Counted from the stretch's first letter, positions 25,277-45,991 are shown. The stretch is DNA of 64,000 bases from Candidatus Giovannonibacteria bacterium (GCA_016186825.1 JACPKW010000001.1:13508-77507), one strand, 5' to 3'. The notes: generated by a model from the letters alone, not told the origin. Translations and numbers: made by a program.

Positions 25277-26059
25277 TCAAACTAAGGCGCGCCAATTTTC
25301 TTCGATAATTCGCATTATAAGATTACCCACAAGCAGCGACAACAATAAATAATCGACCTGCTTGGGGCCTTTGAACGCAAAAATTACCGCAAAGGCTCCC
25401 ACAATAATTCCATATAACACCCTGTTCCGGGTTGGGCGAAAAGATGACGTCATGGGTTCAATGAGCATTACGGTAACAAAAAATAAAACTGTCCCATCTA
25501 AAATGATGTTTCGGAATAAAAAAACCGTATTTTCGAAGCTAAATTTTTGGAAATAATTAGAAATCGCAAATAAACCCATATAAGTTAGCAAAAATGCAAT
25601 TGCCGTTTCAAATCGCCTCTGCCTCCACAGTATGAATATTCCACCCGCGAGCATAATCCAAGTTGTAAAGTATGCAAAATTGGCGCCCCACCAAGTGAGA
25701 ACAAATGGACTAAATAAGGAAAGAACGACAAGCGAAAAAGCTGCAGGGTTAAAAATATGTCGCCCATTGAATTTGATTATTTGCTTCGAAAAAACCGCCA
25801 AAAGGGGCAGCAATATAATAAAACGATAATCCTGCGCCAAAGGACCAACTAATGACAAGATTAGACCCGAGATAAGCGAGCTTTCTGGCATATACCAGAT
25901 GCGATCCCGAAAATAAGTCCAGATCAAATCGAAAAATGAATATAAAAGAACTATTGCAATAGCGTTCAAAAAAATCGCCGCATTGCCATGGAATATTGCG
26001 CCCAAAACCAAAAGCACTGCGAGATATAAAACCATGAAATGTTTAATATTGATTTTCAT
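25277..26059 (-). CDS. polytopic membrane protein, weakly NqrB/RnfD-like
   Basis: 260 aa with about 8 TM. GRHIFNPAAF resembles the FNPALVGR block of RnfD/NqrB. The family assignment is tentative. Its start overlaps the stop of the upstream Ddl gene. Confidence 0.55.
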   Translation of the reverse strand: MKINIKHFMVLYLAVLLVLGAIFHGNAAIFLNAIAIVLLYSFFDLIWTYFRDRIWYMPESSLISGLILSLVGPLAQDYRFIILLPLLAVFSKQIIKFNGRHIFNPAAFSLVVLSLFSPFVLTWWGANFAYFTTWIMLAGGIFILWRQRRFETAIAFLLTYMGLFAISNYFQKFSFENTVFLFRNIILDGTVLFFVTVMLIEPMTSSFRPTRNRVLYGIIVGAFAVIFAFKGPKQVDYLLLSLLVGNLIMRIIEENWRALV

Positions 26060-27129
26060 TAAAGCGGCCCTATTTTTTTAGCATGCGCTTCGATGCCAAG
26101 CGCAATTATTTTATCAAGAAAATCCGCGGGGTTCATCCCCACTTCCGCGGCCTGATGGAATACCATTGTTGAAGGAGTTATGCCCGGCAAAGTATTCGGT
26201 TCAAGCACAACAATTTCTCCGTCTTCTTTCACAAACATGTCAATTCTCGGATACCCGATTAAATTTAATTCATCGCATACTTTAATTGCGATTTCCTGCG
26301 CGCGCGCCGTTAACTCCAGAGAAAGCCTTGCAGGCGTGATCATTTCAGCTCCTCCGGGCAAAAATTTATCCTGCAGCGTTAGATATCCCAAATTTTTACT
26401 CCATGGCGTTTCTGTTATCGGGAGAGCAATTCGACTCGCGCGATTGCCTAATACAGAAATAGTAATTTCCATCCCCGTAATTTTTTCCTCGACTAAAATT
26501 CTCCGATCCCAGTGAAAAGCCGCCGAAAATGCCTGCGGGAGATCCTCTGCTTTCGCCACAATCCCAATCGCTGTTGAACACCCCTCGCGTGACGGCTTTA
26601 CAACAACCGGAAAGCCTAGATAGTCCTCAATACGCCTTGCCGCAATTTCCGGACGTTCGCGCCATTCATCTTCAAATAGAGCGAGGTGCTTTGGAGTTTT
26701 AATCCCCGCATTATCCAATATTTTTCTTTGAATATATTTTTCCGAACCAAGTGCGCTTCCTAAAATTCCGGGGCCGTTATAAGGAATTTTCTGAAGCTCG
26801 AGCAGTCCTTGCAGGCATCCATCCTCCATAAATTTTCCATGCCCGATAATAAATGCAAAATCAATCTGTGATTTCAACTCTTCATAAAAAATTCTCTCCC
26901 CTTTGGTTGCAAGCAGCCTTTCGATATCGGAAGTTGTATTTTGCAACAGCAAGAACTCCGGAATTTTCCAAATCCGATGTTTTGAGTCCATGAAAATAGC
27001 GAAAATATCATACTTGGATGTATCGATTTTCTGAAAAACATTGCGTCCGCCTTCGAGCGATACTTCTTTTTCAGAAGATGATCCGCCGAAAATTATCCCG
27101 ACTTTAACTTTTTTTGCCGCATCGGTCAT
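26059..27129 (-). CDS. ddl: D-alanine--D-alanine ligase family (ATP-grasp), paralog 1
   Basis: 356 aa. N-terminal GIIFGGSSSEKEVSL, ATP-grasp core, C-terminal EPNTLPGIT. Confidence 0.8.
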   Translation of the reverse strand: MTDAAKKVKVGIIFGGSSSEKEVSLEGGRNVFQKIDTSKYDIFAIFMDSKHRIWKIPEFLLLQNTTSDIERLLATKGERIFYEELKSQIDFAFIIGHGKFMEDGCLQGLLELQKIPYNGPGILGSALGSEKYIQRKILDNAGIKTPKHLALFEDEWRERPEIAARRIEDYLGFPVVVKPSREGCSTAIGIVAKAEDLPQAFSAAFHWDRRILVEEKITGMEITISVLGNRASRIALPITETPWSKNLGYLTLQDKFLPGGAEMITPARLSLELTARAQEIAIKVCDELNLIGYPRIDMFVKEDGEIVVLEPNTLPGITPSTMVFHQAAEVGMNPADFLDKIIALGIEAHAKKIGPL

Positions 27130-28196
27130 AGCGGTCCTTTTTTACCTTGATGCGCTTCCATGCCTAATTCGATGAGCTTCGTTATGAAATCTTTGGGACC
27201 AAGCCCCGCAAGCGATGCCTGATGAAAAGTCCAAGATGAAGGACCGAGACCTGTGGAAGCGCCGGAATTCGGATCCGTTATCAACACCTCGCCTGAATCC
27301 AAAACAAAGCCGTCTATCCGGGCAAAAGTTTTCGCCTCCAAGGCCTTATACGCGGCTATTGCTTGGCGCTGAATTTCCTTAATTACACTTTCATCAATTT
27401 CCATCGGCGTAACTTTCTCCGATCCGCCCGGCAAATACTTATGGTCATATGTAAAAATTTCGTCGTTATGTATAGTTTCTGTCGGCAAAAATGCGGCCGG
27501 TTCCTTGTTTCCCATTACAACGCAAGAAAACTCCCGCCCCATTAAATACTTTTCAATTAGCGCTGAAGGGTCAAAACGAAAAGCTTCAGCCATTGCGGGA
27601 TCAAAGTCTCCCTTAGCTTTAACAAGTTTCACTCCGAGAGTGGAACCCTCGCGCGAAGGTTTGGTGACAAGCGGGAAACCGAATTTTTTTTCTAGGCTCG
27701 AAGCAATTTCACTTTTCGAACGCTCCCAATCCTCTTTGTAAATAACTTCACCTTCTGGAATATTGATATTATCTGGCGAAAATTTTAAAAGTTTTCTCTG
27801 CATCGGCTTATCCATTCCGAGCGCCGCAGACAAAACACCAGATCCGCTGTAAGGAATACCGAGCAATTCGAGCAGACCCTGAATACATCCATCATCACCA
27901 TATTTGCCATGCGTTGTGAGCAAGGCAAATTCAATTTCTTTGGCAAGGCCTTCATATGAAATAGGGATCGCCGCTTTTGCCTCAAGATTTTCTTCGATTT
28001 CCTTGCATGTATTTCTGATTACAAGCGCTTCCGGAATTTTCCAGAATTTTGCTTCACGCGAAAAATATATCGCCACAGGCTCAAAAAATACTCGATCCAT
28101 GAGCTGATATGCCTGTCTGCCAGAAGCTAAAGAAACTTCCCGCTCTTCAGAAAGACCCCCAAAGATAACTCCAACTTTTAACTTGCTTTTCTCCAT
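27126..28196 (-). CDS. D-alanine--D-alanine ligase family (ATP-grasp), paralog 2
   Basis: 356 aa. VGVIFGGLSEEREVSL...DPNSGAS. Overlaps paralog 1 by 4 nt. Confidence 0.8.
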   Translation of the reverse strand: MEKSKLKVGVIFGGLSEEREVSLASGRQAYQLMDRVFFEPVAIYFSREAKFWKIPEALVIRNTCKEIEENLEAKAAIPISYEGLAKEIEFALLTTHGKYGDDGCIQGLLELLGIPYSGSGVLSAALGMDKPMQRKLLKFSPDNINIPEGEVIYKEDWERSKSEIASSLEKKFGFPLVTKPSREGSTLGVKLVKAKGDFDPAMAEAFRFDPSALIEKYLMGREFSCVVMGNKEPAAFLPTETIHNDEIFTYDHKYLPGGSEKVTPMEIDESVIKEIQRQAIAAYKALEAKTFARIDGFVLDSGEVLITDPNSGASTGLGPSSWTFHQASLAGLGPKDFITKLIELGMEAHQGKKGPL

Positions 28197-28199
28197 TGA

Positions 28200-29126
28200 T
28201 TATTTTCGAGCTTCTGAAATTAAATGCTCCAATAGTCCTTTGAAAGAAAGTCCGGCAACATTCGCCGCCTCCGGATAACAGGCCTCCGGAGTCAATTTCG
28301 GAAGAGCATTCGCTTTGTTAATATAAATCCCGCGTTTTGATAATGTGAATTCTGTGCGCGAATAATGCCTGCACCCCAAAGCCTGATGCGCAACTATTGA
28401 CGATTCTTTAATTTTATCCGTCGTGGCCTTGTCAAAACGTCCCGGACAAATCATCCCTCCTCTTTTCGGATCGCAAATTTCAACAACCGGCAGCGCGTAA
28501 TATTTTTGTCCATGAAAATTTTCAAGCACTCCGCCTGAAGCGACCCTTCCATCCAAGTTTTCTTCAATTAATGCTTCTTTGCAGTCAGGAGTCTCAAATA
28601 TTTTATCCAAAGCTCTAACAATTTCAGGCTCGCTCTTTGCTAAAATTTGCAAGGCTGAATTTGCTTGCGCTGGCTTGATTACCCACCAAGGGAAAAGCGT
28701 CTCGCGCGCCGTTGATACCATTTTTTTTCGATCGCTAAGCCGTGAGACAACCACAGCGTGGGGAACTTTCAAGCCATGGCTTTCAAAAATCTTTCTCGAA
28801 ATTATTTTATTGCCCGCGGCGGCGGCAGAAACCGCATCCGAGCCGGTAACAGGCAGCCCCAGCGTTTTAAAGCTTTGCTCGGCTTTTTTATACCCCTTGA
28901 GTCTGCCATGCAAGGCATTAAAAACAACATCAATTTTATGAGCTAGTTTTTCAGGCGGCAAGGGGAATCCATCCAAATGCCAAATTCCGTCCTTAGTCCA
29001 AAGAATGTCTTTCAATTCATACTTATTACGCGGCAAATATTTCAAAGCATTCGCCCCGGATTGGAGCGAAGCTTCGAATTCCGAATATGGTCCTCCGCGA
29101 AGCACTCCGACCCTTATCTTAGCCAT
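28200..29126 (-). CDS. D-alanine--D-alanine ligase family (ATP-grasp), shorter paralog 3
   Basis: 308 aa. VGVLRGGPYSEFEASL N-terminal domain and ATP-grasp C-terminal half. 4-nt gap to paralog 2. Confidence 0.7.
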   Translation of the reverse strand: MAKIRVGVLRGGPYSEFEASLQSGANALKYLPRNKYELKDILWTKDGIWHLDGFPLPPEKLAHKIDVVFNALHGRLKGYKKAEQSFKTLGLPVTGSDAVSAAAAGNKIISRKIFESHGLKVPHAVVVSRLSDRKKMVSTARETLFPWWVIKPAQANSALQILAKSEPEIVRALDKIFETPDCKEALIEENLDGRVASGGVLENFHGQKYYALPVVEICDPKRGGMICPGRFDKATTDKIKESSIVAHQALGCRHYSRTEFTLSKRGIYINKANALPKLTPEACYPEAANVAGLSFKGLLEHLISEARK

Positions 29127-31450: not shown

Positions 31451-32289
31451 ATTATCTTCTAGAAACTTAGAATTGATGTTCCCACGTAGTGTGCGGATTT
31501 CCCGCGCTACGCGAGCTCTAATGCATTGATGCTTTTATTTTATAGAGCTTAGCTAACCCCTGCTTGTTAAGATGTTGGCCGTTTTTTATCCTCAACATCA
31601 GATCACAGAATATCTCAAAGTCTCTTTTCTTTGATTTAAGCTGCAACTGATGAGTTTTAAAAAACGGAATAATGACATCTTCAAGATCCTTTCTATTGGA
31701 TACTTCATAGCGATAACAATTCTGGTGATTCTTACGTGTATCTTTCTGAAAATACACCTCGCCGCAACCGAAAAATTTTTTTAGCCTAAAGAGAATTTCA
31801 GAGTCTCTCTCAATAAGCTTTAAATAAAATTTCGGTTCAGCTCTAACCCATCTTTTTACATTTTTTGTAAATTCAGGGTTTTTAATGTAGGCGGTAAAAC
31901 TACCCTCGCCATCAACTAGTCCAATAATATATTCGGCATTAAGCATATTTAGAGTGGATCCTTTCCGGTTCTAGCCGGTACTATGATCCAGCTGACTTCT
32001 GACGCTGCGTAAGTTTCATTATATCTTATCTTGCGACAAAATAGCAGCGTCAGATCTCCACAGGTCATTTTATTTTCTATTCCAAGCATCCGAATTGGCC
32101 TTATTATGATCTTCCCTGCCCTCACCGCCAATTGCAGGTCGAACTGCCATTTATATATCGGCTGCTTTTTGCTTCCAGATCCTTCGCTTGCCGCTTCACA
32201 GCGGCAAACTATCTTTCGGCTATGCTCTTTGACGAGAAGAGAAATGGATTTTAACCATTCAGAAAATAAAACTGCTGCGCGCTTTTATT
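31451..32289 (-). mobile_element. intron-like insertion 1 in the 16S gene (near E. coli position 1391) carrying a LAGLIDADG ORF
   Basis: The 16S sequence stops after ...CTTGTACTCAC and resumes CGCCCGTCACG 839 bp later. Conserved rRNA flanks are intact on both sides. Confidence 0.65.
31518..31946 (-). CDS. LAGLIDADG homing endonuclease (single-motif)
   Basis: 142 aa. The N-terminal IIGLVDGEGSF is the LAGLIDADG motif. Encoded inside the 16S insertion on the same strand as the rRNA. Confidence 0.75.
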   Translation of the reverse strand: MLNAEYIIGLVDGEGSFTAYIKNPEFTKNVKRWVRAEPKFYLKLIERDSEILFRLKKFFGCGEVYFQKDTRKNHQNCYRYEVSNRKDLEDVIIPFFKTHQLQLKSKKRDFEIFCDLMLRIKNGQHLNKQGLAKLYKIKASMH

Positions 32290-32714
32290 GTGAGTACAAG
32301 ACTCGAGAACGTATTCACCGCGGCATAGCTGATCCGCGATTACTAGCGATTCCAGCTTCATGAGGTCGAGTTTCAGACCTCAATCCGAACTGAGCTCACC
32401 TTTGATGAGATTGGCTCCGCCTTACGGCATCGCGACCCATTGTAGTGAGCATTGTAGCATGTGTGTAGCCCAGGGCATCAGAGGGTCATGCTGACCTGGC
32501 GTCATCCCCGCCTTCCTCCCCCTATACGGAGGCAGTCTCGTCTGACACTTATAACAGACGATAAGGGTTGCGTTCGTTACCCCACTTAAGGGAACAGCTC
32601 AAGCCACGAACTGACGACGGCCATGCAACACCTGTGTAAGCGTCCTTGTGAGACATTTTTTCTTTCGAAAAAATTTCGCTTACATTTCAAGCCCTGGTGA
32701 GGTTCTTCGTTTAC

Positions 32715-32749
<35 letters not shown>

Positions 32750-32896
32750 AGTCCCCGTCTATTCCTTTGAGTTTTAATCTTGCGATCGTACTTCCCAGGC
32801 GGCAGGCTTAACGCGTTAGCTTACGGCTCCCGAAGGGTCGATACTTCGGATGCCTAGCCTGCATCGTTTAGGGCGTGGACTACAAGGGTATCTACA

Positions 32897-33593
32897 AATT
32901 TGTTGCTAACAACAAATTTGAAATTTTCAATTTTACAATTTCCAATTTTCAAAATGTTGTAGGGCAAGACATTTCTGCTTGTCTCTCTGCATCGCTGCAG
33001 AGTTCAGACTATATCATACGAGCACTTTGAGAAGCGGACGTCGTTAGACATCCGGACTTCAAAGTGCTCGCCTCGGCGTATAGTCGTTGAGGGGAATTAG
33101 ACTGGGATAAAACGACTCACCTCATAAAGGTTTCTGCCAATAACTCGATCTCCGCCAGCTTCGATGTTCTTGATAAATTCAGCCAAATCCGCTTTCGCAA
33201 GATCGTCGGACTCCTGTTCGATGCATTCAACTATGCTGCGGTTCTTGTTTTCTATATCAAGTATAGCGAGATAGTTCATTTTCTACTCCTTTCTTAATTC
33301 TTCCCTGCTGGTTATCCGCACCAAAACATTTTTACTCTTGCAAGTAGTTTTGGATACACCGGACTTTCCAGCATATAGCTCCCGCCTCGGCTCACGCCTC
33401 GACGGGATTCTCAATTTTGCAGCCAACATGCGTTGGGCAAAATTGGAACAAGTTTTTTATCCTCGTCCGCCAGTTAGCGGATTCGAGGGGACTAGTTTTC
33501 CGCCGATACCCTCGGCGGCCACTGCACAGCAGTAAAATCTCCAATTTGAAAATTGAAAATTGTAAATTGAAAATTTCGCTGCCATGCAGCGGG
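32897..33593 (-). mobile_element. intron-like insertion 2 in the 16S gene (within the GGATTA|GATACCC block, near E. coli position 788)
   Basis: About 697 bp interrupt a universally conserved block. The insertion termini carry complementary AT-rich repeats (AAATTTGAAATTTTCAATTTTACAATTTCC at 32921-32950 and GAAAATTGAAAATTGTAAATTGAAAATTTC at 33549-33578) that could pair the intron ends. Confidence 0.55.
33097..33279 (-). CDS. small acidic ORF inside 16S insertion 2, preceded by a strong SD
   Basis: 60 aa. The minus-strand upstream sequence reads GAATTAAGAAAGGAGTAGAAA-ATG, so the SD AAAGGAG lies 6 nt from the start. No recognised motif. Confidence 0.35.
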   Translation of the reverse strand: MNYLAILDIENKNRSIVECIEQESDDLAKADLAEFIKNIEAGGDRVIGRNLYEVSRFIPV

Positions 33594-33920
33594 TTAATCC
33601 TTTTTGATCCCCACGCTTTCGTGTTTCAGGGTCAGGAATGCCCCAGCAAATTGCCTTCGCCTTTGGTGTTCCCCTAGATATCAACGGATTTCACCCCTAC
33701 ACCTAGAGTTCCATTTGCCTCTGGCACCCTCCGAGCTCGGCCGTTTCCCCGCCAGCTTCAGGGTTGAGCCCTGAAATTTAAACGGAGACTAACCGTGCCC
33801 CCTACACACCCTTTACGCCCAATAAATCCGGATAACGCTCGGGCTCCTCGTCTTACCGCGGCTGCTGGCACGAGGTTAGCAAGCCCTTATTCCTGCGGTA
33901 CCGTCAGAGTTAGAGCTGTG

Positions 33921-34148
33921 AAGAGACAAGTTTTTTTCCTTTCTACTTGCCTCGTATTTTCCTTATTGGATAAGGACTATTGAAAATATATTTGGGGTTG
34001 TCATTTTTGATTCTTATGAATCTCCCAGGGACTTCATCTGATGTTGCTTCAAATTCTTTTGTAACTCTTTCCCCGGTTTTTTGATTTACCCCGCGCACTA
34101 TATACAAATAGCGCTGATATTCTCTATTTAACATTTTAAATATCTCCT
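33921..34148 (-). other. insertion of about 228 nt in the loop of the 16S V3 hairpin (helix 17), intervening-sequence-like
   Basis: Complementary stems GAGTTAGAGCTGTG (33907-33920) and CACAGCTCCAACTC (34149-34162) flank about 228 nt where E. coli has about 35 nt. Confidence 0.5.
33943..34134 (-). CDS. small basic ORF (63 aa) inside the 16S V3 insertion, preceded by an SD
   Basis: MLNREYQRYLYIVRGVNQKTGERVTKEFEATSDEVPGRFIRIKNDNPKYIFNSPYPIRKIRGK. The upstream minus-strand sequence is GTGAGGAGATATTT-ATG (GGAG 7 nt from the start). The longer ORF-track version (to 34299) runs into conserved rRNA and is rejected. Confidence 0.35.
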   Translation of the reverse strand: MLNREYQRYLYIVRGVNQKTGERVTKEFEATSDEVPGRFIRIKNDNPKYIFNSPYPIRKIRGK

Positions 34149-34626
34149 CACAGCTCCAACTCTTCTTCTCGCAGAAAAGCGGTTTACGCTCCGAAGAGCT
34201 TCTTCCCGCACGCGGCGTCGCTCGATCAGGCTTTCGCCCATTGTCGAATGTTCTTGACTGCAGCCACCCGTAGGTGTATGGACCGTGTCGCAGTTCCATT
34301 GGTGGGGATCAAGCTCTCACTTCCCCTAGCCGTCATAGCCTTGGTAGGCCATTACCCTACCAACAAGCTGATAGCCCGCAGGCCTTTCCCAGAGCCTATC
34401 GCTAGATTTACTCGGCACCTTCCAAACTTCGTGTAATTCGCTCGACACAAAGTCTCGAAGGTGCCGAGACTATCGGGAATTAGCTAACCTTTCGGCTAGT
34501 TATGCCCGTCTCTGGGGTAAGTTCCTACGTGTTACTACCCCGTCTGCCACTGAACATCTAAATCCGTCGCATTGATATAATCTCAACTCCTTCAAAAGAT
34601 GTTCCGTTCGACTTGCATGCCTTATC

Positions 34627-34666
<40 letters not shown>

Positions 34667-35068
34667 TTTGAATTGCTCACGCATTGCGCGAGCAAATTTT
34701 GAACGGGACAAAAGAGAGTAGTTATAACTTTCTTTTGTCACAAACTTTTCACCCGCTTAAGTATTGTCTTAAACAATTCCTTGCGGGTTGTGTGTCCCGA
34801 TTTTGCTTCTGCAAAGCAGAAATGCAAAATCGAGGATCCCCGATTTTCATTTATGAAAATCGGGACATGTTTTTGATATTCTTTTTTCAACGTTCTGTCG
34901 ATCTGAATATTCTCTGTAAACAAACCCGCAACTGCCTTCACATAAAAACAGTTGCGGACTTGTTTATTTTTCAAATAAATTTTTAGGGCTGTTTACATAA
35001 GTTTTCGAATTAATTCTAAGTCCAATGTCCATTATATGGTTCCTGCAAAGCTTGTCAACCGGCCGATT

Positions 35069-40323: not shown

Positions 40324-42597
40324 TCAGAGTTGTCGAGATCTAATGGCAATCTTTCTGAAAAAGTAATAGAGGAGATAGGCAGGAATTGCTAAGATTGCGC
40401 AAAGAATCCAAATTATGTTTGAGCCGCCGCCGAGTTGATGCCGAATTTTTTTCTTTTCAGAAATTTCATAAGCGAGCAAAGCAGAGCCTAAAATTGCAGT
40501 GAAAATAATCAGAAAAGGCTTGAAATAATCGCCGATTCCAGTATAGGGCACTTGGCTTAAAAAGATATGCGATGCGGGAATCAATTGGCCTTGAAGCGTC
40601 ACATTGCTTGAAGGTAGGATCGGGCCGCCTACGCCACCACCGCCACCTCCTCCGCCACCGCCGCCACCGCCACCTCCTCCGCCGCCATTTCCTCCACCGC
40701 CATTTCCTCCACCGCCATTTCCTCCACCGCCACCGCCACCTTTTTTAGCGTTGGTAAATGTGCAAGTAACGGTTTCACCGAAACTCAAATTTATCTCACT
40801 TGTGGAATTTACGTTGCTGCAATTTGAGCTCTGGTTGTAGTCCGAATTTGAATTTTCTGTCACGGAGTAGACGCCCGGATTAAGCCCCGAAAAAGTTTTG
40901 GAATTTGAGAACGCGTCAGTAGTACTGCCGTTATCATCCAACTGGAAAGTTGTGGTAGCTAGACCAAGCGCTTTTGAGAAGAAATTAAATGTAAAAGCAG
41001 TCGCGTCATCAGGATCCGTATTTTTTATAATCACAAGATTCGCTTTTTTCTTTGTATTCGTGAAAGTGCATGTTACCGTTTCGCGCTCTGAAATTTTGAT
41101 CTCTGAAACCTGGCTTCCATCACTGCAAGATGAAATCGTTTCAAATAATGAATTGGGATCTTCACTGACGGCATAAGTTCCTGGAACCAGATTCACGAAA
41201 GTTTTTGAATTGGAAAATTGATTTGAATTGTTTCCATCATCATCGAGCTGGAAAACACCCGGATTTAAATTATCGGAACGGAAAGTAAATACGGTGCTGT
41301 GATCGGGAACGGTGTCTTTAACAATTACCAGGGAACCGAAAGCAGGCGGGGCTGGAGGTTGAGGCGGTTCTTCTTCATCTGCGGGGTTTTCACCTTCCTC
41401 GCCTTCATCTTCTGCGTCATCTTCACCGACTCCATCATCATCTTCTTCTGCAACCCCGTCGTCATCCTCCTCCGCAACTCCATCATCGTCTTCGCCTGCC
41501 GCGCCATCATCATCTTCCCCCGCGGTGCCGTCATCATCTTCACCTGCTGACCCATCGTCATCGCCCCCTCCGTCATTGTCATTATCACCATCGTCATCAC
41601 CATCGTCATCACTATCGTCATCGCTATCTCCGTCATCATCGCTATCACTGTCTCCATCATCATCACCACCATCTCCATCGCCGTCTCCGTCACCACCATC
41701 TGTGCCATAGTAGCGAAGCTTAAATTCAATTTGATCACTGTTATTGGCACCAATTGTTTTCAAAGGAATCTGGAAAGTATATGTTTTGTGTTCCCATTTT
41801 ACCTTGCTTGTATATTCATAATCGCTTTTGCCCCATTCCGCATGATTGTTGTCGATTTTGAAAAATCGGACACCGCTGTCAGTTTTTATTGCAAGCTCCG
41901 CCCAGTCGCCCTCCGGATCAAGCGTGTTGTCTGAAGTCCAGTCCAGAAACAATCTTAACTTCTCGCCGCTTGTTCTAAAGTATGCATATCTCGTCGCGGC
42001 AGGATGGCTCGATGCAGGTATTGCATCGAATTTATAAACCTTGTTTTGGCCAACCTCGTAATTTAAGTATCCTTTTTCAGGCCATTCATAAGGGACGCCC
42101 TTGTAATCTTCCTCGACTCCCGTAATAAAAAGCGTTCTTCCTTTTTCAATCCACGAAAGCTCAATAGTCTTTGACAACGCATCAACAACATCATAATCGG
42201 CATGCGAAAGTTTCTTCGTTGAAATCAATTTTCCGTCAGATGCGTACTTCGCCTCGGAAGGAATTTTTCCGCCTAGCGAAACTTCATCCAGATGCGCGCT
42301 TTGAGAATTTCCATCATGCCTAATGCGGACCCGATTAGTTTCTCCCGGAAGCAGGATAGTTTTTGATGTATAGCGATCGGGGTAAGGTTGCCCCGGAAAA
42401 TTTTCATCTGCAACAAAAATCCATTCGCCGTTATTGTAAGCTTCAATAATAAATGTTCCCGCTTCTGCGCGCGCATCAAAAACTCCCGATGTGAAAACAG
42501 AATGCAGTATGCGGACCACAAAATATAAAATTACGAAAAACAAAACCGCGTTTATCTTCTTAATTGTTATAATTTTTTTATTTATTTCTTTTTCCAT
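40324..42597 (-). CDS. large cell-surface protein: beta-sandwich repeats, acidic Asp/Gly/Glu tract, poly-Gly tract, VPYTG sorting-like signal
   Basis: The start is moved to MEKEINKK (signal/TM at AVLFFVILYFVV). Two repeated modules end ...GETVTCTFTN. Low-complexity GDGDGD...DDDG...EEDDDG and (GGGGN)n tracts. The C-terminus has QVPYTG, a hydrophobic stretch and a basic patch. A sortase gene lies 1.4 kb upstream. Confidence 0.7.
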   Translation of the reverse strand: MEKEINKKIITIKKINAVLFFVILYFVVRILHSVFTSGVFDARAEAGTFIIEAYNNGEWIFVADENFPGQPYPDRYTSKTILLPGETNRVRIRHDGNSQSAHLDEVSLGGKIPSEAKYASDGKLISTKKLSHADYDVVDALSKTIELSWIEKGRTLFITGVEEDYKGVPYEWPEKGYLNYEVGQNKVYKFDAIPASSHPAATRYAYFRTSGEKLRLFLDWTSDNTLDPEGDWAELAIKTDSGVRFFKIDNNHAEWGKSDYEYTSKVKWEHKTYTFQIPLKTIGANNSDQIEFKLRYYGTDGGDGDGDGDGGDDDGDSDSDDDGDSDDDSDDDGDDDGDNDNDGGGDDDGSAGEDDDGTAGEDDDGAAGEDDDGVAEEDDDGVAEEDDDGVGEDDAEDEGEEGENPADEEEPPQPPAPPAFGSLVIVKDTVPDHSTVFTFRSDNLNPGVFQLDDDGNNSNQFSNSKTFVNLVPGTYAVSEDPNSLFETISSCSDGSQVSEIKISERETVTCTFTNTKKKANLVIIKNTDPDDATAFTFNFFSKALGLATTTFQLDDNGSTTDAFSNSKTFSGLNPGVYSVTENSNSDYNQSSNCSNVNSTSEINLSFGETVTCTFTNAKKGGGGGGGNGGGGNGGGGNGGGGGGGGGGGGGGGGGGVGGPILPSSNVTLQGQLIPASHIFLSQVPYTGIGDYFKPFLIIFTAILGSALLAYEISEKKKIRHQLGGGSNIIWILCAILAIPAYLLYYFFRKIAIRSRQL

Positions 42598-42723
42598 ATG
42601 ATTTTGGATCTGTTGATGCAGACCCTTCTTTGCCCCGAAATTTATTTCGGGATAAAGAAGGATCCGGAAGGAGAGCGCATGCACCCGCATGACTCTTCCT
42701 TCCGGAATTACGCGTCACTCGTT

Positions 42724-43938
42724 TCACTCGTTCGTAGAAAAGTGGAATCGTGAAAATTCTGTCACGACTCCACGTTCGCCCTTCGGCTCCCGAGTTTTGC
42801 CGAAAGGTCTGGACTTTAGTTTCCCTCCGCTCGGGTATCGGAGGATCCCTTTTGGCCCGTAAATTTCAAAAAACATATCATCACGAGCCCAAGACAGCGG
42901 GAACTTTAGTTCGCCCACGCCGTCGCAAACTTCGAGCGAAATAGTATTTGCTTCCGGTCCGAAACCTGAAAGCCTTTCGCGCCTGCCGTTCCGCTCAAAA
43001 ATGGAACCATGAGCGGCGTCAAAATTCGCATTTGTAAACCTCACCAGAAATTTCTGGCAAGGAAGCGAACTTAACTGCGCAATACCCTGCTTCTTTTCTT
43101 CCATGATTTTCTTGCCCAGGTTGTGGCTTTGAAAACCTGGTTTTTCATTAAGCAAGGCAGCAGTCCCGATCGGCTTCCACAAGCGTGGGAGAATACTAAA
43201 CATATCTTCCACACGTGTTGGTTCGACGGTAGACACGCCCGGAGGCGGCGGCGGGACATAGGCCTGCGAAACAGGCGGTTTCGCTGGGAAACACAGCCGC
43301 GACCAGTTGTTACAATCAAATGGATGTACCAGCCGGCAGGTTGTTCCTGCGATTGTTACATCCCACGATTCCTTGGATGCCTCAACGGCCAATTCAACAG
43401 GGACACCTAACTCCATACCGCTCCCCACCATCATCGCATCCAATTTATCGCCTCGAATCAGAGCTCCCGGGGCTCCCTCTTCGGTTTGAACTTTTTTTAG
43501 AAATTCTTTTTGGTAACCGAAGAACGGTGTGCCTTGGGCGAACAGGCATTTGATTGCCTCCTCGCGCGTCCCCTTGTAAGGGTCTCCTCGAAGAGACCTC
43601 CAAGGCTTGCCGCGAGCCACGATTTTACATGGATCCGCAACCCGCGCCTGCGCAGTTTTAACTTTTGGGGGCGGCTTCTTGGTTGCCTTGGCGGGCGGCT
43701 TCTTTACTTTCGCCGCCGCAACTTTTGCCGGCACATCACCTCCCGCACCCATCTCAACTTTTTTTTCAAATTCTTTTTTTGCCTTTTCGGCGGCTTTTAC
43801 CGCCGAGTCAGGCGCAGACTGGATCAACGGCACCTGCATGATTTCCTCCGCTCCCCAAGCGCTTTCCAGCAGCCCGAGAACTACTACCACGACTCCTGCC
43901 GCGAGGGAGGGCCAAAAAACCGAACCTGTCTCTTTCAT
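42724..43938 (-). CDS. secreted protein of unknown function (GC-rich gene)
   Basis: 404 aa. N-terminal signal-like hydrophobic segment, a Lys/Ala/Pro-rich tract (AAKVKKPPAKATKKPPPKVK), then a Cys-containing globular part. The composition is clearly GC-richer than the neighbours. Confidence 0.55.
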   Translation of the reverse strand: MKETGSVFWPSLAAGVVVVVLGLLESAWGAEEIMQVPLIQSAPDSAVKAAEKAKKEFEKKVEMGAGGDVPAKVAAAKVKKPPAKATKKPPPKVKTAQARVADPCKIVARGKPWRSLRGDPYKGTREEAIKCLFAQGTPFFGYQKEFLKKVQTEEGAPGALIRGDKLDAMMVGSGMELGVPVELAVEASKESWDVTIAGTTCRLVHPFDCNNWSRLCFPAKPPVSQAYVPPPPPGVSTVEPTRVEDMFSILPRLWKPIGTAALLNEKPGFQSHNLGKKIMEEKKQGIAQLSSLPCQKFLVRFTNANFDAAHGSIFERNGRRERLSGFGPEANTISLEVCDGVGELKFPLSWARDDMFFEIYGPKGILRYPSGGKLKSRPFGKTREPKGERGVVTEFSRFHFSTNE

Positions 43939-44038
43939 AACACCTCCAAATTTCTTAATTGAACGTTGTTTATTGACGCGTTTTTAGTTTAAAAAGAACT
44001 TCCTCCTTCCTTCCTCATCTCATTTCCAAACTGTTCAA

Positions 44039-44091
44039 TTTGTCAAACATTGTCAAACATCTGATGTCTGACAAATTTAGATGTTGGACAA
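44039..44091. promoter_or_regulatory. array of TTGTC(A/C)(A/G)ACATC half-sites (two direct, two inverted), candidate operator
   Basis: TTGTCAAACAT|TGTCAAACATC t GATGTCTGACAA ...GATGTTGGACAA. A 25-bp near-perfect palindrome with one mismatch, plus flanking half-site copies. It lies about 100 bp upstream of the 42724-43938 gene and just downstream of the sortase gene. Confidence 0.55.
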
Positions 44092-44093
44092 GC

Positions 44094-44870
44094 TTATGAA
44101 GAAGCACCCGCCGAGAGTAGAGTCGCTCCAAACGGATATCTCTTCACAAATTCCGCTTCAACAATGTAGCGTTCCTCATTTGCGCCGAAAATTTTGCAGG
44201 TTGAAAGGGTCAAAATTTTTCTGCCGTCAGTATGAAAATCAATTTCTGCGTCTTCAGCCCGCCTTATCTGCACATTTAAAACCTTGTAGGCATACTCGTA
44301 GCCGTTCGAACGCATGTAAATTGCATCGCCGTATTTCAATTCTTTTAAATTATTAAATACTATTGAATTTTTATTTCTCGGATTAAGCACGCCCGCAGAA
44401 TGCCCAAAGACAAACATGTTTCCAACTTCGCCCGGCATTACAGAGCCCGGGTAATGAACTGGGCCTTTGAGCAAACTCGCCGTTAAGTAATCCCAATCGT
44501 TTTTGATCGGAAAAACTATTTGGCTCTGCACGCCAGCCTTAGGAATTACAAGTTGAACTCCGCCCTCAAAACTTATTCGAGCATTTTCATCTTCTGGAAC
44601 TGTTTCAGATTCAGAAACTGCAGGCGATGCCTCCTCGTTATCACCTTGCGTAAATGACCCGAAAACCCACGCAACCGAATTTAAGAAAACTTCCGAAATT
44701 CCGTCTTTAAGATTGCCGCCAAAAATAGGCGTGAAAAAAATTAATGCAAAAATGCCGAGCAAAATTACAAGCCACAAACCCAAAAAACCCAAACTAAATA
44801 TCCCTTCGCTTTTTGCGCGTAAATCAGCTCGGCATCCATGTTTTTCTAAAATTTCACCTCTTTGATACAT
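44094..44870 (-). CDS. sortase-family transpeptidase
   Basis: 258 aa. N-terminal TM anchor, catalytic His in FVFGHSAG, Cys in ILTLSTCKIFG (TLxTC), downstream Arg. Confidence 0.75.
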   Translation of the reverse strand: MYQRGEILEKHGCRADLRAKSEGIFSLGFLGLWLVILLGIFALIFFTPIFGGNLKDGISEVFLNSVAWVFGSFTQGDNEEASPAVSESETVPEDENARISFEGGVQLVIPKAGVQSQIVFPIKNDWDYLTASLLKGPVHYPGSVMPGEVGNMFVFGHSAGVLNPRNKNSIVFNNLKELKYGDAIYMRSNGYEYAYKVLNVQIRRAEDAEIDFHTDGRKILTLSTCKIFGANEERYIVEAEFVKRYPFGATLLSAGASS

Positions 44871-44995: not shown

Positions 44996-45991
44996 ATGGA
45001 CCAAAACATAAATGCCAGGACAAATCAGTTTTATACGCGGCTTTTAATAATTCTCGCGATAGTTCTGATTTTAGTTATCACCGCAACCGCGCTCCTTTTT
45101 AAAGGCAGCGACAGATTGCGCCAACTCGGATCGTCTTTCGTTTCCCTGTTCTCGAGAAAAGTTACTGAAAAACAAGAACTGATTCTGAAAGCTGAACCAA
45201 TGCAGGTTAAGTCGGGAGAAAATTTCAGGCTTTCTTACGAACATCGCGGTAAAAAAGAAGACGGCTCTTACACTCTAAGCTTTCAATGCGCCGAAGATCT
45301 TAAATTAATGCTCGACACTGGTGAGCCAGTTTTTTGTTCGCGGCCGCTCGATCTAACTGTTGCGGAGTTGACGCTGAAAGCGTCAAGCACAAAAACAGGA
45401 TTTTCCGAATTGCCGATCAGACTTGAATTTCAAAGCGCTGCAACCTCGACCTCCGACCAGGTGATCGTCAGAATTGAAAGAGAGAGCAACAAGACAACCG
45501 GAGGAACAAATGCTCAAACTGGAACTTCAACTCCTCCGAAACAGACAACCACAAATCCACCGAAAGTGGTAGTCGGTCAGCCGAAGACAATTTATAACAA
45601 CGAACCTATCCGCGATCCGAGTCACGTTGATCTTGATTTAAAAATTATTGATCGCGGAGTTGTAAACCCCACGACTGGCGTATTTACATCAAAATCCACA
45701 GTAGCTTCGGGCGAACGAGCCGCAGTCGTTTTTGATGTTCAAAATAATGGCGGCGTGCCTTCTGGACCTTGGTTTCTTTATGCCCGCCTTCCGATATCCG
45801 ATAAGAATTTCACATCCTCCGTTCAGCCCTCGCTCAAGCCTGGCGACAAAATCAGATTCACGATGGGCTTCGGCGATCTTTTGAATTCCGGCCCGAACGA
45901 CGTTTCATTTAGCGCGAATATTCAGATCAGGCTCCTTGAATCTAATTTCATAAATAATACCGCGACAACTTCTGTAAATCGCGGCTTCTAA
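44996..45991 (+). CDS. secreted protein with a C-terminal CARDB-like beta-sandwich
   Basis: 331 aa. N-terminal TM (LLIILAIVLILVI). The C-terminal segment DLDLKIIDRGVVNP...AAVVFDVQNNGGVPSGPWFLYARL resembles CARDB. Confidence 0.45.
   Translation: MDQNINARTNQFYTRLLIILAIVLILVITATALLFKGSDRLRQLGSSFVSLFSRKVTEKQELILKAEPMQVKSGENFRLSYEHRGKKEDGSYTLSFQCAEDLKLMLDTGEPVFCSRPLDLTVAELTLKASSTKTGFSELPIRLEFQSAATSTSDQVIVRIERESNKTTGGTNAQTGTSTPPKQTTTNPPKVVVGQPKTIYNNEPIRDPSHVDLDLKIIDRGVVNPTTGVFTSKSTVASGERAAVVFDVQNNGGVPSGPWFLYARLPISDKNFTSSVQPSLKPGDKIRFTMGFGDLLNSGPNDVSFSANIQIRLLESNFINNTATTSVNRGF

What the first reader, a model, noticed from the sequence alone, without database searches (positions are those of the whole stretch)
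40324..44870. Sortase with a candidate non-canonical VPYTG substrate: giant acidic/poly-Gly surface protein
A sortase (44094-44870; His, Cys in TLSTC, and Arg triad) lies 1.4 kb from a 757-aa surface protein. That protein's C-terminal region has QVPYTG followed by a hydrophobic stretch and a KKKIRH patch, a sorting-signal-like arrangement with V instead of L. The unusual feature is a second TM segment after the basic patch. The substrate also carries an extraordinary acidic tract (GDGDGD...DDDGDSDDD...EEDDDGV x n, about 150 aa) and a (GGGGN)n tract of about 45 aa, between duplicated beta-sandwich modules ending in VTCTFTN. It may be a cation-binding (Ca2+) or adhesive surface fibre typical of episymbiotic CPR cells.
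Basis: partly seen in the sequence, partly recalled or inferred. Interest (0 to 1): 0.5.

Follow-up and report, generated by a model that had tools for sequence, protein, structure and literature searches.

The report
Parcubacterial sortase with LSQVPYTG sorting signal
A surface protein of a Candidatus Giovannonibacteria (CPR) bacterium ends in LSQVPYTG, a membrane helix and a basic patch, and this turns out to be the shared, apparently undescribed LPXTG-like sorting signal of a whole unclassified group of Parcubacteria sortases.

Summary
A 258-aa sortase (44094-44870, minus strand) has the His/Cys/Arg triad. It lies two genes upstream of a 788-aa secreted protein (40324-42690). That protein ends in LSQVPYTG, a 6-aa spacer, a 17-aa hydrophobic segment and KKKIRH.

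The motif is not peculiar to this gene. A DNA scan of GTDB genomes found about 52 more L[ST]QVPYTG+TM proteins, all in CPR/Parcubacteria genomes. 26 of these loci also hold a homologous sortase, upstream on the same strand in 25.

An independent scan started from the sortase. 31 of 44 informative metagenome loci carried a P.TG+TM protein directly downstream. The motif there was [VI][YF]L[SN]Q[VIL]P[YA]TG, including one canonical LPATG. No such signal occurred in any other ORF of those loci.

Passenger domains are varied adhesin-type Ig folds. Only the motif is invariant. The sortases reach no NCBIfam class cut-off.

No Pfam model, NCBIfam model or searchable paper describes the signal.

Best reading: a lineage-specific sortase and sorting-signal pair that anchors surface proteins.

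One thing does not fit. About 40% of family members carry a conserved cytoplasmic domain of about 250 aa after the helix.

Cleavage and wall linkage are inferred, not shown.

The parts
44094..44870 (-). Sortase, 258 aa. It has a single N-terminal membrane anchor (aa 23-52) and an extracellular catalytic domain with His157, Cys225 and Arg234. It belongs to an unclassified Parcubacteria group.
   Evidence: Pfam PF04203 scores 84 bits. Only the generic TIGR01076 passes its cut-off; the class A-F/GN models score 58 bits or less against cut-offs of 140-166. The triad is aligned to PDB sortases and invariant in 26 relatives. There is no DP[WFY] lid and no C-terminal TM.
42724..43938 (-). 404-aa protein with an N-terminal signal/anchor, encoded between the sortase and the substrate. 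Its function is unknown and it is not a conserved part of the system.
   Evidence: No Pfam or NCBIfam hit. Only 18 representatives among 1.84 billion proteins. Intervening genes in other loci are mostly unrelated; there is a weak match only to the L036 gene.
40324..42690 (-). Candidate sortase substrate, 788 aa (757 aa from the second ATG at 42597).
   Evidence: ORF; features mapped.
42466..42555 (-). N-terminal signal peptide or signal anchor (aa 46-75, ends ...DARA/EAG).
   Evidence: Read from the sequence. 51 of 60 complete family members have such a signal by a strict rule; among the other nine, three show one by eye and most of the rest have masked N-termini.
41701..42465 (-). N-terminal all-beta passenger domain (aa 76-330) of unknown function.
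   Evidence: One homologue only, P0010, 48% identical, from an archaeal-looking contig. AlphaFold mean pLDDT is 69.6 and the model is all beta. No Foldseek PDB match below E=1e-3.
41341..41706 (-). Acidic low-complexity tract (aa 329-450; 48 D, 16 E, 27 G) built from degenerate 24/48-nt repeats.
40741..41340 (-). Two tandem modules of about 100 aa (aa 451-549 and 550-650), each ending in ETVTCTFTN. They are probably prealbumin/SpaA-like Ig folds that form a stalk.
   Evidence: 50% identical to each other, E=7e-31. SpaA_4 scores 23 bits against a cut-off of 27.3, which is sub-threshold.
40624..40740 (-). Poly-Gly / (GGGGN)n tract, aa 651-689. Likely a flexible wall-spanning linker.
   Evidence: Three short-read contigs end inside it, so its exact length is uncertain.
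40537..40560 (-). LSQVPYTG (aa 711-718), the proposed sortase recognition motif. Predicted cleavage is between Thr717 and Gly718.
   Evidence: L, Q, V, P, Y, T and G are the only invariant columns in 53 otherwise unrelated proteins. The consensus from the sortase-started scan is [VI][YF]L[SN]Q[VIL]P[YA]TG.
40468..40518 (-). Hydrophobic membrane segment of the sorting signal (aa 725-741), 6 residues after the motif.
   Evidence: Family medians are a 6-aa spacer and a 22-aa uncharged run.
40438..40455 (-). Basic patch KKKIRH (aa 746-751), a positive-inside stop-transfer.
   Evidence: 68 of 73 family members have at least 2 K/R in the 8 residues after the helix.
40327..40416 (-). Second uncharged segment (aa 759-778) plus the basic end RKIAIRSRQL. 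This extra C-terminal piece was not seen in the other family members.
   Evidence: Not seen in the other tails listed.

Best explanation
This is a dedicated sortase and substrate pair of a Parcubacteria-specific type.

Proposed mechanism:
1. The 788-aa protein is exported through its N-terminal signal.
2. It is held in the membrane by the C-terminal hydrophobic segment and the Lys-rich patch. This places LSQVPYTG about 6 residues outside the membrane.
3. The membrane-anchored sortase encoded two genes upstream (His157/Cys225/Arg234) recognises the extended LPXTG-like motif. It cleaves between Thr717 and Gly718 and forms an acyl-enzyme.
4. The sortase hands the protein to an amine nucleophile, most probably the peptidoglycan precursor.
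5. The protein ends up covalently fixed to the cell wall. The poly-Gly linker acts as the wall-spanning piece. The two Ig-like modules and the acidic tract act as stalk and spacer. The N-terminal beta domain is displayed outward.

Shown here:
- the anatomy of the signal;
- the sortase catalytic residues;
- conservation of the motif on unrelated passengers;
- operon-level coupling of motif and sortase in many genomes, and its continuity with LPATG.

Inferred:
- the cleavage itself and its site;
- the nucleophile and wall linkage;
- the roles of the low-complexity tracts.
For: (1) Related genomes found through the sortase. The sortase orthologues in L008 and L009 are followed by a PKD protein ending in VYLSQVPYTG+TM+KRR.

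(2) Scan of GTDB genomes starting from the motif.
- 69 matches. About 52 lie in long ORFs, all from CPR/Parcubacteria-type MAGs, and each is followed by a TM helix and a basic patch. The other 17 look like chance matches in other phyla.
- 26 of the real loci hold a homologous sortase within the 8-kb locus. In 25 it is upstream on the same strand, and in 12 the gap is 140 bp or less. None of the chance loci has a sortase.

(3) Metagenome scan starting from the sortase (pattern GNMF[ILV]FGH).
- 31 of 44 loci with at least 1.5 kb downstream carry a P.TG+TM protein.
- All 32 such signals are in downstream same-strand ORFs. None occurs in 171,000 aa of other ORF translation from the same loci.
- The 26 non-redundant motifs are VPYTG 14, VPATG 5, IPYTG 3, IPATG 2, VPDTG 1 and LPATG 1. 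The motif is therefore a variant of LPXTG.

(4) In 53 substrates only L, Q, V, P, Y, T and G are invariant. The passengers are PKD, DUF11, SprB, He_PIG, Ig_3, Filamin, SpaA_2, Cna_B and MucBP, which are typical adhesin and sortase-substrate domains.

(5) The tripartite geometry holds in 73 non-redundant proteins: median spacer 6 aa, median hydrophobic run 22 aa, and at least 2 K/R after the run in 68 of 73. N-terminal signals are present.

(6) In an NJ tree of 55 paired sortases, all 41 PYTG-linked enzymes form one clade. The PATG/PDTG-linked enzymes lie outside it.

(7) The window encodes D-Ala-D-Ala ligases, so a peptidoglycan precursor is made.
Against: - There is no biochemical evidence. 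Cleavage, cleavage site and acceptor are all inferred.
- 29 of 73 family members carry 65-330 residues after the helix. 22 long tails (at least 150 residues from the motif) were aligned; most share a conserved, unannotated cytoplasmic region and span about 290-350 residues from motif to stop. A disposable sorting signal is not expected to carry this.
- The window protein has 47 residues after the first helix, including a second hydrophobic segment. Its flanking charges do not fit a simple hairpin.
- Eight residues, not five, are nearly invariant, so something beyond classical sortase recognition may constrain the motif.
- 13 of 44 sortase loci have no adjacent substrate. The sortase-found loci L006 and L080 also have none within the fetched flanks (up to 10 kb).
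- The enzyme-motif co-clustering in the tree could reflect shared descent alone. No specificity-determining column was found.
Confidence: 0.75

Rival explanations
1. The sortase recognises LSQVPYTG, but the purpose is not simple wall anchoring. Cleavage would separate an ectodomain from a membrane-embedded C-terminal fragment that has a function of its own, such as signalling or regulated shedding. In long-tailed relatives that fragment would be the helix plus the conserved cytoplasmic domain of about 250 aa. In this protein it would be the two-helix remnant.
For: - 29 of 73 family members have long tails after the helix. 22 long tails were aligned and most share a conserved cytoplasmic region without any Pfam match.
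- Sortase genes sit directly upstream of long-tailed members too, for example L016, L023, L056, L063, L073, L075 and L076.
- Many short tails carry a recurring [IL]x[DEA]FKxxN motif after the basic patch.
- The motif is conserved over 8 residues.
Against: - The window protein has no conserved cytoplasmic domain and no FKxxN motif.
- Nothing here identifies a partner for the remnant.
- Wall anchoring and a functional remnant are not mutually exclusive.
Confidence: 0.12
2. The sortase is a pilus-type (class C-like) polymerase. It would join copies of the SpaA-like protein into a covalent fibre rather than attach single molecules to the wall.
For: - The best PDB sequence matches are class C sortases: 2xwg at E=1e-8 and 8t28.
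- The substrate has sub-threshold SpaA-type modules.
- Some relatives carry SpaA_2 or Cna_B domains.
Against: - The sortase has no DP[WFY] lid motif and no C-terminal membrane helix.
- The substrate has no [WYF]PK pilin motif.
- The class C NCBIfam model scores 38 bits against a cut-off of 160.
- Loci usually hold a single substrate gene.
- Passenger domains differ completely between genomes. That fits a general anchoring enzyme, not a dedicated pilin polymerase.
Confidence: 0.08
3. LSQVPYTG is only a conserved juxtamembrane segment of a Parcubacteria membrane-anchor module. It is never cleaved, and the sortase next door acts on other proteins.
For: - Long conserved cytoplasmic extensions occur in many members.
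- The first residue of the pentapeptide is V or I rather than L.
- No NCBIfam sorting-signal model matches.
Against: - The invariant core P-x-T-G is exactly the sortase-recognised core, and LPATG occurs at the same position in a sister lineage.
- The coupling is tight and directional, with the sortase upstream on the same strand.
- No alternative [LVI]P.TG-type substrate exists in the 64-kb window or in the 80 sortase loci.
Confidence: 0.05

Closest known systems
Housekeeping sortases with LPXTG-type cell-wall sorting signals (class A with LPXTG; class E with LAXTG in Actinobacteria). This comparison rests on established knowledge and on PMC5148588 as listed.
   Same: - The enzyme is a type II membrane-anchored Cys transpeptidase with a His/Cys/Arg triad.
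- The substrate has an N-terminal signal, varied adhesin-type passengers and a low-complexity wall-spanning region.
- The substrate then has an x-P-x-T-G motif, a hydrophobic helix and a basic patch.
- One enzyme serves several unrelated substrates.
   Different: - No class model reaches its cut-off. Class E scores 58.5 bits against 160, and NCBI's own name 'class E sortase' for this protein is not backed by that model.
- Position 1 of the motif is V or I.
- The conserved motif extends four residues upstream, giving Phi-[YF]-L-[SN]-Q-[VI]-P-[YA]-T-G.
- Tails are often long.
- The sortase gene is usually fused into an operon with a substrate gene.
Clostridioides difficile SrtB with (S/P)PXTG substrates (PMC4155245 and PMC4371152, seen only as titles and abstracts; the motif itself is from my own knowledge).
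   Same: It is a precedent for a sortase whose natural signal departs from L at position 1 while keeping P-x-T-G.
   Different: It belongs to a different sortase class and phylum, has a different first residue, and has no extended upstream consensus.
Class C pilus sortases with SpaA-type pilins.
   Same: These are the closest solved sequences (2xwg, 8t28). Prealbumin-like or Cna-B-like modules occur in the substrates.
   Different: There is no lid, no C-terminal anchor, no pilin motif and no multi-pilin gene cluster.
Other C-terminal sorting systems: exosortase/PEP-CTERM, archaeosortase/PGF-CTERM, rhombosortase/GlyGly-CTERM and myxosortase/MYXO-CTERM (10.1101/2023.06.07.544157, abstract).
   Same: The logic is the same: a short lineage-specific C-terminal motif, a helix and a basic cluster, found on many unrelated secreted proteins and genomically paired with a dedicated processing enzyme. 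This pair was found in the same way, by co-occurrence.
   Different: The enzyme here is a true sortase (PF04203), not an exosortase, archaeosortase or rhomboid-type protease.

Membership tests
Sortase superfamily (Pfam PF04203 / NCBIfam TIGR01076) | Domain model score above the curated cut-off. | tested here: met
   PF04203 scores 84.2 bits against 26.6. TIGR01076 scores 47.3 against 39.35.
Sortase superfamily (Pfam PF04203 / NCBIfam TIGR01076) | Catalytic His, Cys (TLxTC-like) and Arg. | tested here: met
   H157, C225 (LTLSTC) and R234 align with 2xwg and 8t28 and are invariant in 26 relatives.
Sortase classes A-F and GN (NCBIfam NF033745-8, NF058671, TIGR03784) | Class model score above the curated cut-off. 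| tested here: not met
   The best is class E at 58.5 bits against 160. No class model matched any of the 26 relatives better than E=8e-16 (the window sortase's own 58.5 bits), far below the 140-166-bit cut-offs.
LPXTG-type cell-wall sorting signal | Pentapeptide L-P-x-T-G. | tested here: not met
   The window has V-P-Y-T-G. The family uses [VIL]-P-[YAD]-T-G, and L at position 1 occurs in only 1 of 26 sortase-linked motifs. P, T and G are invariant.
LPXTG-type cell-wall sorting signal | Hydrophobic membrane segment directly after the motif, then a positively charged cluster. | tested here: met
   The window has a 6-aa spacer, a 17-aa uncharged run and KKKIRH.
LPXTG-type cell-wall sorting signal | The signal lies at the extreme C-terminus with only a short charged tail (my own knowledge: about 30-40 residues from motif to end). 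| tested here: not met
   The window has 78 residues from the L of the motif to the stop, with a second hydrophobic segment. 29 of 73 relatives have 65-330 residues after the helix.
LPXTG-type cell-wall sorting signal | N-terminal secretion signal on the same protein. | tested here: met
   aa 46-75 in the window protein. 51 of 60 relatives pass a strict rule.
LPXTG-type cell-wall sorting signal | Genomic pairing with a sortase. | tested here: met
LPXTG-type cell-wall sorting signal | Cleavage between T and G and an amide bond to peptidoglycan. | not testable with these tools
   This needs mass spectrometry or an in vitro assay.
Class C pilus sortase / pilin system | A lid with a DP[WFY] motif and a C-terminal membrane helix in the enzyme; a [WYF]PK pilin motif in the substrate. 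| tested here: not met
   None of the three is present.

The most novel reading that the evidence does not exclude
The extended L-[SN]-Q-[VI]-P-[YA]-T-G + helix module may be more than a wall-anchoring signal. It could be a sortase-operated switch. In the roughly 40% of family members that carry a conserved cytoplasmic domain of about 250 aa (or an FKxxN tail motif), sortase cleavage of the ectodomain would release or re-program a membrane-tethered intracellular domain. Surface-protein display on these ultra-small cells would then be coupled to an intracellular response. That would be a kind of sortase-dependent transmembrane signalling with no described counterpart.
Probability: 0.12. Interest if true: 0.85.

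Novelty: new variant of a known kind. Interest (0 to 1): 0.6.

Why it matters
CPR/Patescibacteria are thought to live attached to other cells, yet how their surface proteins are displayed is almost unknown. More than half of CPR genomes are reported to encode a sortase (PMC6744442). I found no description of what those enzymes recognise.

A nearly invariant, easily searchable signal would have several uses:
- It would let anyone list the wall-anchored surface proteome (candidate adhesins) of thousands of uncultured Parcubacteria directly from sequence.
- It would correct the 'class E sortase' annotation and justify a new sortase class and a new sorting-signal model.
- It would offer a sortase with a new, longer recognition sequence for protein-ligation chemistry.

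The conserved cytoplasmic extension on many substrates is unexpected for sortase biology and deserves its own study.

Tried and rejected
- **Tail-only protein search.** Searching the 100-aa C-terminal tail returned nothing. The word index and the E-value limits of a 5.8-billion-sequence database are too strict for a short motif. I replaced it with a degenerate DNA pattern scan.
- **Passenger domain homologues.** The N-terminal domain search gave a single homologue, so the alignments were too shallow for modelling.
- **Structure prediction.** The AlphaFold model of the whole protein was unusable (pLDDT 42.5). The N-domain model was moderate (69.6) and matched no solved fold below E=1e-3. The function of the passenger domain stays unknown, and the prealbumin fold of the modules is unconfirmed.
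- **PDB sequence search of the two modules.** No hit.
- **A conserved third component between sortase and substrate.** Rejected. The intervening genes are mostly unrelated, and the 404-aa protein family is tiny. The one neighbourhood I could fetch was too short to be informative.
- **Specificity-determining residues.** I looked for sortase positions that separate PYTG-linked from PATG-linked enzymes and found none that was clean.
- **Link to the CPR Pam pilus (bioRxiv 10.64898/2026.03.03.709456).** Only one relative has a PamR-like domain hit. That paper mentions sortase only as background.
- **Literature searches.** Searches for VPYTG, PYTG with sortase, sortase with CPR, Parcubacteria or Patescibacteria, and LPXTG with these taxa found no description of the motif.
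Full report
**What is in the window**

On the minus strand, three co-directional genes fill the finding's coordinates:
- a 258-aa sortase (44870 to 44094);
- a 404-aa protein with an N-terminal signal/anchor (43938 to 42724);
- a 788-aa protein (42690 to 40324), or 757 aa from the second ATG. An SD-like GGAAGGA precedes only the first ATG.

A 331-aa membrane protein is encoded divergently at 44996-45991.

NCBI names the identical sortase protein as coming from a Candidatus Giovannonibacteria bacterium. The surroundings are housekeeping genes: SMC, RNase III, NusB-NUDIX, L32, RNase HII, DnaE and ThrR S-type tRNA synthetase (ThrRS).

**The sortase**

Pfam Sortase scores 84 bits. His157, Cys225 (LTLSTC) and Arg234 align with the catalytic residues of solved sortases and are invariant across 26 relatives.

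The protein has one N-terminal membrane helix (aa 23-52). It has no DP[WFY] lid and no C-terminal helix.

No NCBIfam class model comes near its cut-off, either for this protein or for 26 relatives. The best is class E at 58.5 bits against 160, and only the generic TIGR01076 passes. The public label 'class E sortase' is therefore not supported by the class model. This is an unclassified group.

**The substrate**

Mapped features in 788-aa numbering:

| Feature | Residues |
|---|---|
| Signal/anchor | 46-75 |
| All-beta N-terminal domain | 76-330 |
| Acidic tract (122 aa; 48 D, 16 E, 27 G) | 329-450 |
| Module 1, ending ETVTCTFTN | 451-549 |
| Module 2, ending ETVTCTFTN | 550-650 |
| Poly-Gly/(GGGGN)n tract (39 aa) | 651-689 |
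| Linker (21 aa) | 690-710 |
| LSQVPYTG | 711-718 |
| Spacer (6 aa) | 719-724 |
| Uncharged segment (17 aa) | 725-741 |
| KKKIRH | 746-751 |
| Second uncharged segment (20 aa) | 759-778 |
| RKIAIRSRQL | 779-788 |

The two modules are 50% identical (E=7e-31). Their only family signal is a sub-threshold SpaA_4 prealbumin-like hit.

No other [LVI]P.TG-type signal exists in the 64-kb window, and there is no second sortase.

**Is VPYTG a sorting signal? Evidence starting from the sortase**

The sortase has few close relatives in the protein database (9 hits). Two of them (35-41% identity) lie in partly syntenic neighbourhoods with ThrRS, DnaE, RNase HII, L32 and NusB-NUDIX. Two genes downstream of each is a PKD-domain protein ending ...VYLSQVPYTGAKDNAKIIGLVALVAVWSVALGYYFLKRR.... 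The passenger is unrelated to the window protein, but the 8-residue motif, the helix and the basic patch are the same.

**Evidence starting from the motif**

I scanned one genome per GTDB species with a degenerate DNA pattern for L-[ST..]-Q-V-P-Y-T-G. It returned 69 matches.
- About 52 lie in long ORFs, all in CPR MAGs. The labels include Kaiser-, Adler-, Taylor- and Sungiibacteria, Paceibacterota and Parcubacteria, plus generic 'uncultured Saccharibacteria' labels that I could not verify.
- In each of these the motif is followed by a helix and K/R residues.
- The other 17 are frame-random matches in unrelated phyla.

26 of the real loci contain a homologue of this sortase within the 8-kb locus. 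In 25 it is upstream on the same strand, and in 12 the gap is 140 bp or less. None of the chance loci has one.

Several genomes or contigs hold two or more such proteins with the same motif: L008 with L027, L044 with L077, L010 with L040, and the tandem copies in L037 and L059.

Across 53 of these proteins the only invariant alignment columns are L, Q, V, P, Y, T and G. Their Pfam domains are PKD, DUF11, SprB, He_PIG, Ig_3, Filamin, SpaA_2, Cna_B and MucBP. These are the kinds of domain usually found on sortase-anchored adhesins.

**An unbiased check starting from the sortase**

The motif scan fixed the motif in advance, so I also searched metagenome contigs with the sortase peptide pattern GNMF[ILV]FGH. 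This gave 80 confirmed loci.
- Of 44 loci with at least 1.5 kb downstream of the sortase, 31 carry a P.TG+helix protein.
- All 32 such signals in the 80 loci are in downstream, same-strand ORFs. None occurs in 171,000 residues of all other ORFs of at least 100 aa in those loci.

The 26 non-redundant motifs read [VI]-[YFS]-L-[SN]-Q-[VIL]-P-[YA]-T-G. The pentapeptides are VPYTG 14, VPATG 5, IPYTG 3, IPATG 2, VPDTG 1 and LPATG 1.

VPYTG is therefore one state of a family that includes the canonical LPATG, and the invariant part is P-x-T-G.

In an NJ tree of 55 paired sortases, all 41 PYTG-linked enzymes form one clade, and the PATG/PDTG-linked enzymes fall outside it. This fits co-evolution, but shared descent could explain it equally well. 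I found no clean specificity column.

**Geometry of the signal**

Values for 73 non-redundant substrates:
- median spacer 6 residues;
- median uncharged run 22 residues;
- at least 2 K/R in the next 8 residues in 68 of 73.

N-terminal signal sequences are present in 51 of 60 complete proteins by a strict rule; among the other nine, three show one by eye and most of the rest have masked N-termini.

Low-complexity Gly/Pro/Asp-rich stretches upstream of the motif also occur in relatives, for example L011 and L032. This matches the wall-spanning regions of classical LPXTG proteins (my own knowledge).

The window also encodes three D-Ala-D-Ala ligase paralogues, so a peptidoglycan precursor is made.

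**What does not fit a classical signal**

- Position 1 is V or I.
- Four residues upstream of the pentapeptide are almost as conserved as the pentapeptide itself.
- 29 of 73 proteins continue for 65-330 residues after the helix. 22 long tails were aligned and most share a conserved cytoplasmic region with no Pfam match. These proteins still sit directly behind sortase genes.
- Many short tails share an [IL]x[DEA]FKxxN motif.
- The window protein has neither feature. It does have a second hydrophobic segment that I saw in no other member.

These points leave room for a function of the C-terminal remnant, which is the first rival and the novel case. They do not weaken the link between the sortase and the motif.

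**Comparison with known systems**

The arrangement works like a housekeeping sortase with an LPXTG-type signal. It fails strict membership of any sortase class. It also fails the strict LPXTG definition on the first residue and on the length of the tail.

It is unlike pilus systems, because it has no lid, no pilin motif and no pilin cluster.

The discovery logic parallels that of the exosortase, archaeosortase and myxosortase signals.

Pfam and NCBIfam (release of June 2026) contain no model that matches the signal.

Six literature searches found sortases in CPR mentioned only in general terms. [quoted passage not shown] None mentioned this motif. The library does not hold subscription journals, so prior description elsewhere cannot be excluded.

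**Verdict**

The window shows one instance of a Parcubacteria-wide pairing. An unclassified sortase group is paired with an extended LPXTG-like signal, with consensus Phi-[YF]-L-[SN]-Q-[VI]-P-[YA]-T-G, a helix and K/R.

I put 0.75 on the sortase processing this protein at the motif and anchoring it to the envelope. Wall linkage as the specific outcome is the least certain step.

This is a new variant of a known kind. Interest is moderate to high, 0.6. It would make the surface proteome of a very large uncultured group predictable, and the long cytoplasmic extensions are a real oddity.

Noticed in passing
L015, L023, L024, L030, L031, L048, L053, L064, L072, L073 and others (tails after the motif): 22 tails of at least 150 residues after the motif were aligned. 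Most continue for about 290-350 residues after LSQVPYTG and share a conserved cytoplasmic region. Its motifs include NLP[TV]G..[VI]GY, LEN.AH...LLS.DA.R, AK..YP.EDGW and a C-terminal helical domain. It has no Pfam match.
   Followed up: partly
Tails in L008, L010, L012, L027, L034, L040, L071, L101, L103, L112, L117, L122, L126: Many short cytoplasmic tails share a motif [IL]x[DEA]FKxxN[L] about 10-25 residues after the basic patch. The window protein lacks it.
   Followed up: no
window 26059-29126 (-): Three tandem D-Ala-D-Ala ligase paralogues (356, 356 and 308 aa). The third is more divergent. They may make different dipeptides or bridge residues for the wall precursor.
   Followed up: no
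window 32243-34672 (-): The 16S rRNA gene spans 2430 nt against a 1533-position model, so it carries about 900 nt of insertions. No intron family matched at E<=0.01 and there is no large endonuclease ORF. A 118-aa ORF lies at 33943-34299 on the same strand.
   Followed up: partly
window 41701-42465 (-) and L079:5970-7265: The only detectable homologue of the N-terminal passenger domain (48% identity, full length) sits on a contig with archaeal-type genes (CfbE, deoxyhypusine synthase). It ends in its own, different C-terminal helix + RRK anchor (...DGCQVPAISTAGIVALAGMLSLIAVFTIRRKLER). This may reflect inter-domain transfer of a surface module.
   Followed up: partly
L081:3840-5476: A more distant sortase (P0009) is followed by a DUF11 protein ending ...AATDVNTGIVSDLFGSLLLPLGLATMLLFIFK..KKRK. 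This is a TG + helix + basic tail without the Pro, and may be a further signal variant.
   Followed up: no
window 40624-40740; L001, L002, L004: Three independent short-read contigs all end at nucleotide 1988 of the substrate gene, inside the poly-Gly coding repeat. The tract length in the window assembly may not be exact.
   Followed up: partly
window 44094-44870: The public name of the identical protein is 'class E sortase', but the NCBIfam class E model scores 58.5 bits against a cut-off of 160.
   Followed up: yes
L028, L041, L062: Three proteins have YVYLSQVPYTGF followed by a short charged, amphipathic C-terminus (for example LDFLFGKVKVILFESRQFIMAN) instead of a clean helix. In L062 the sortase is on the opposite strand.
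   Followed up: no
window 44996-45991 (+): A divergently encoded 331-aa protein with an N-terminal helix and only weak BatD/SpaA_3-like signals. It has no P.TG signal. It was seen only in contigs of the same population (L001-L005).
   Followed up: no
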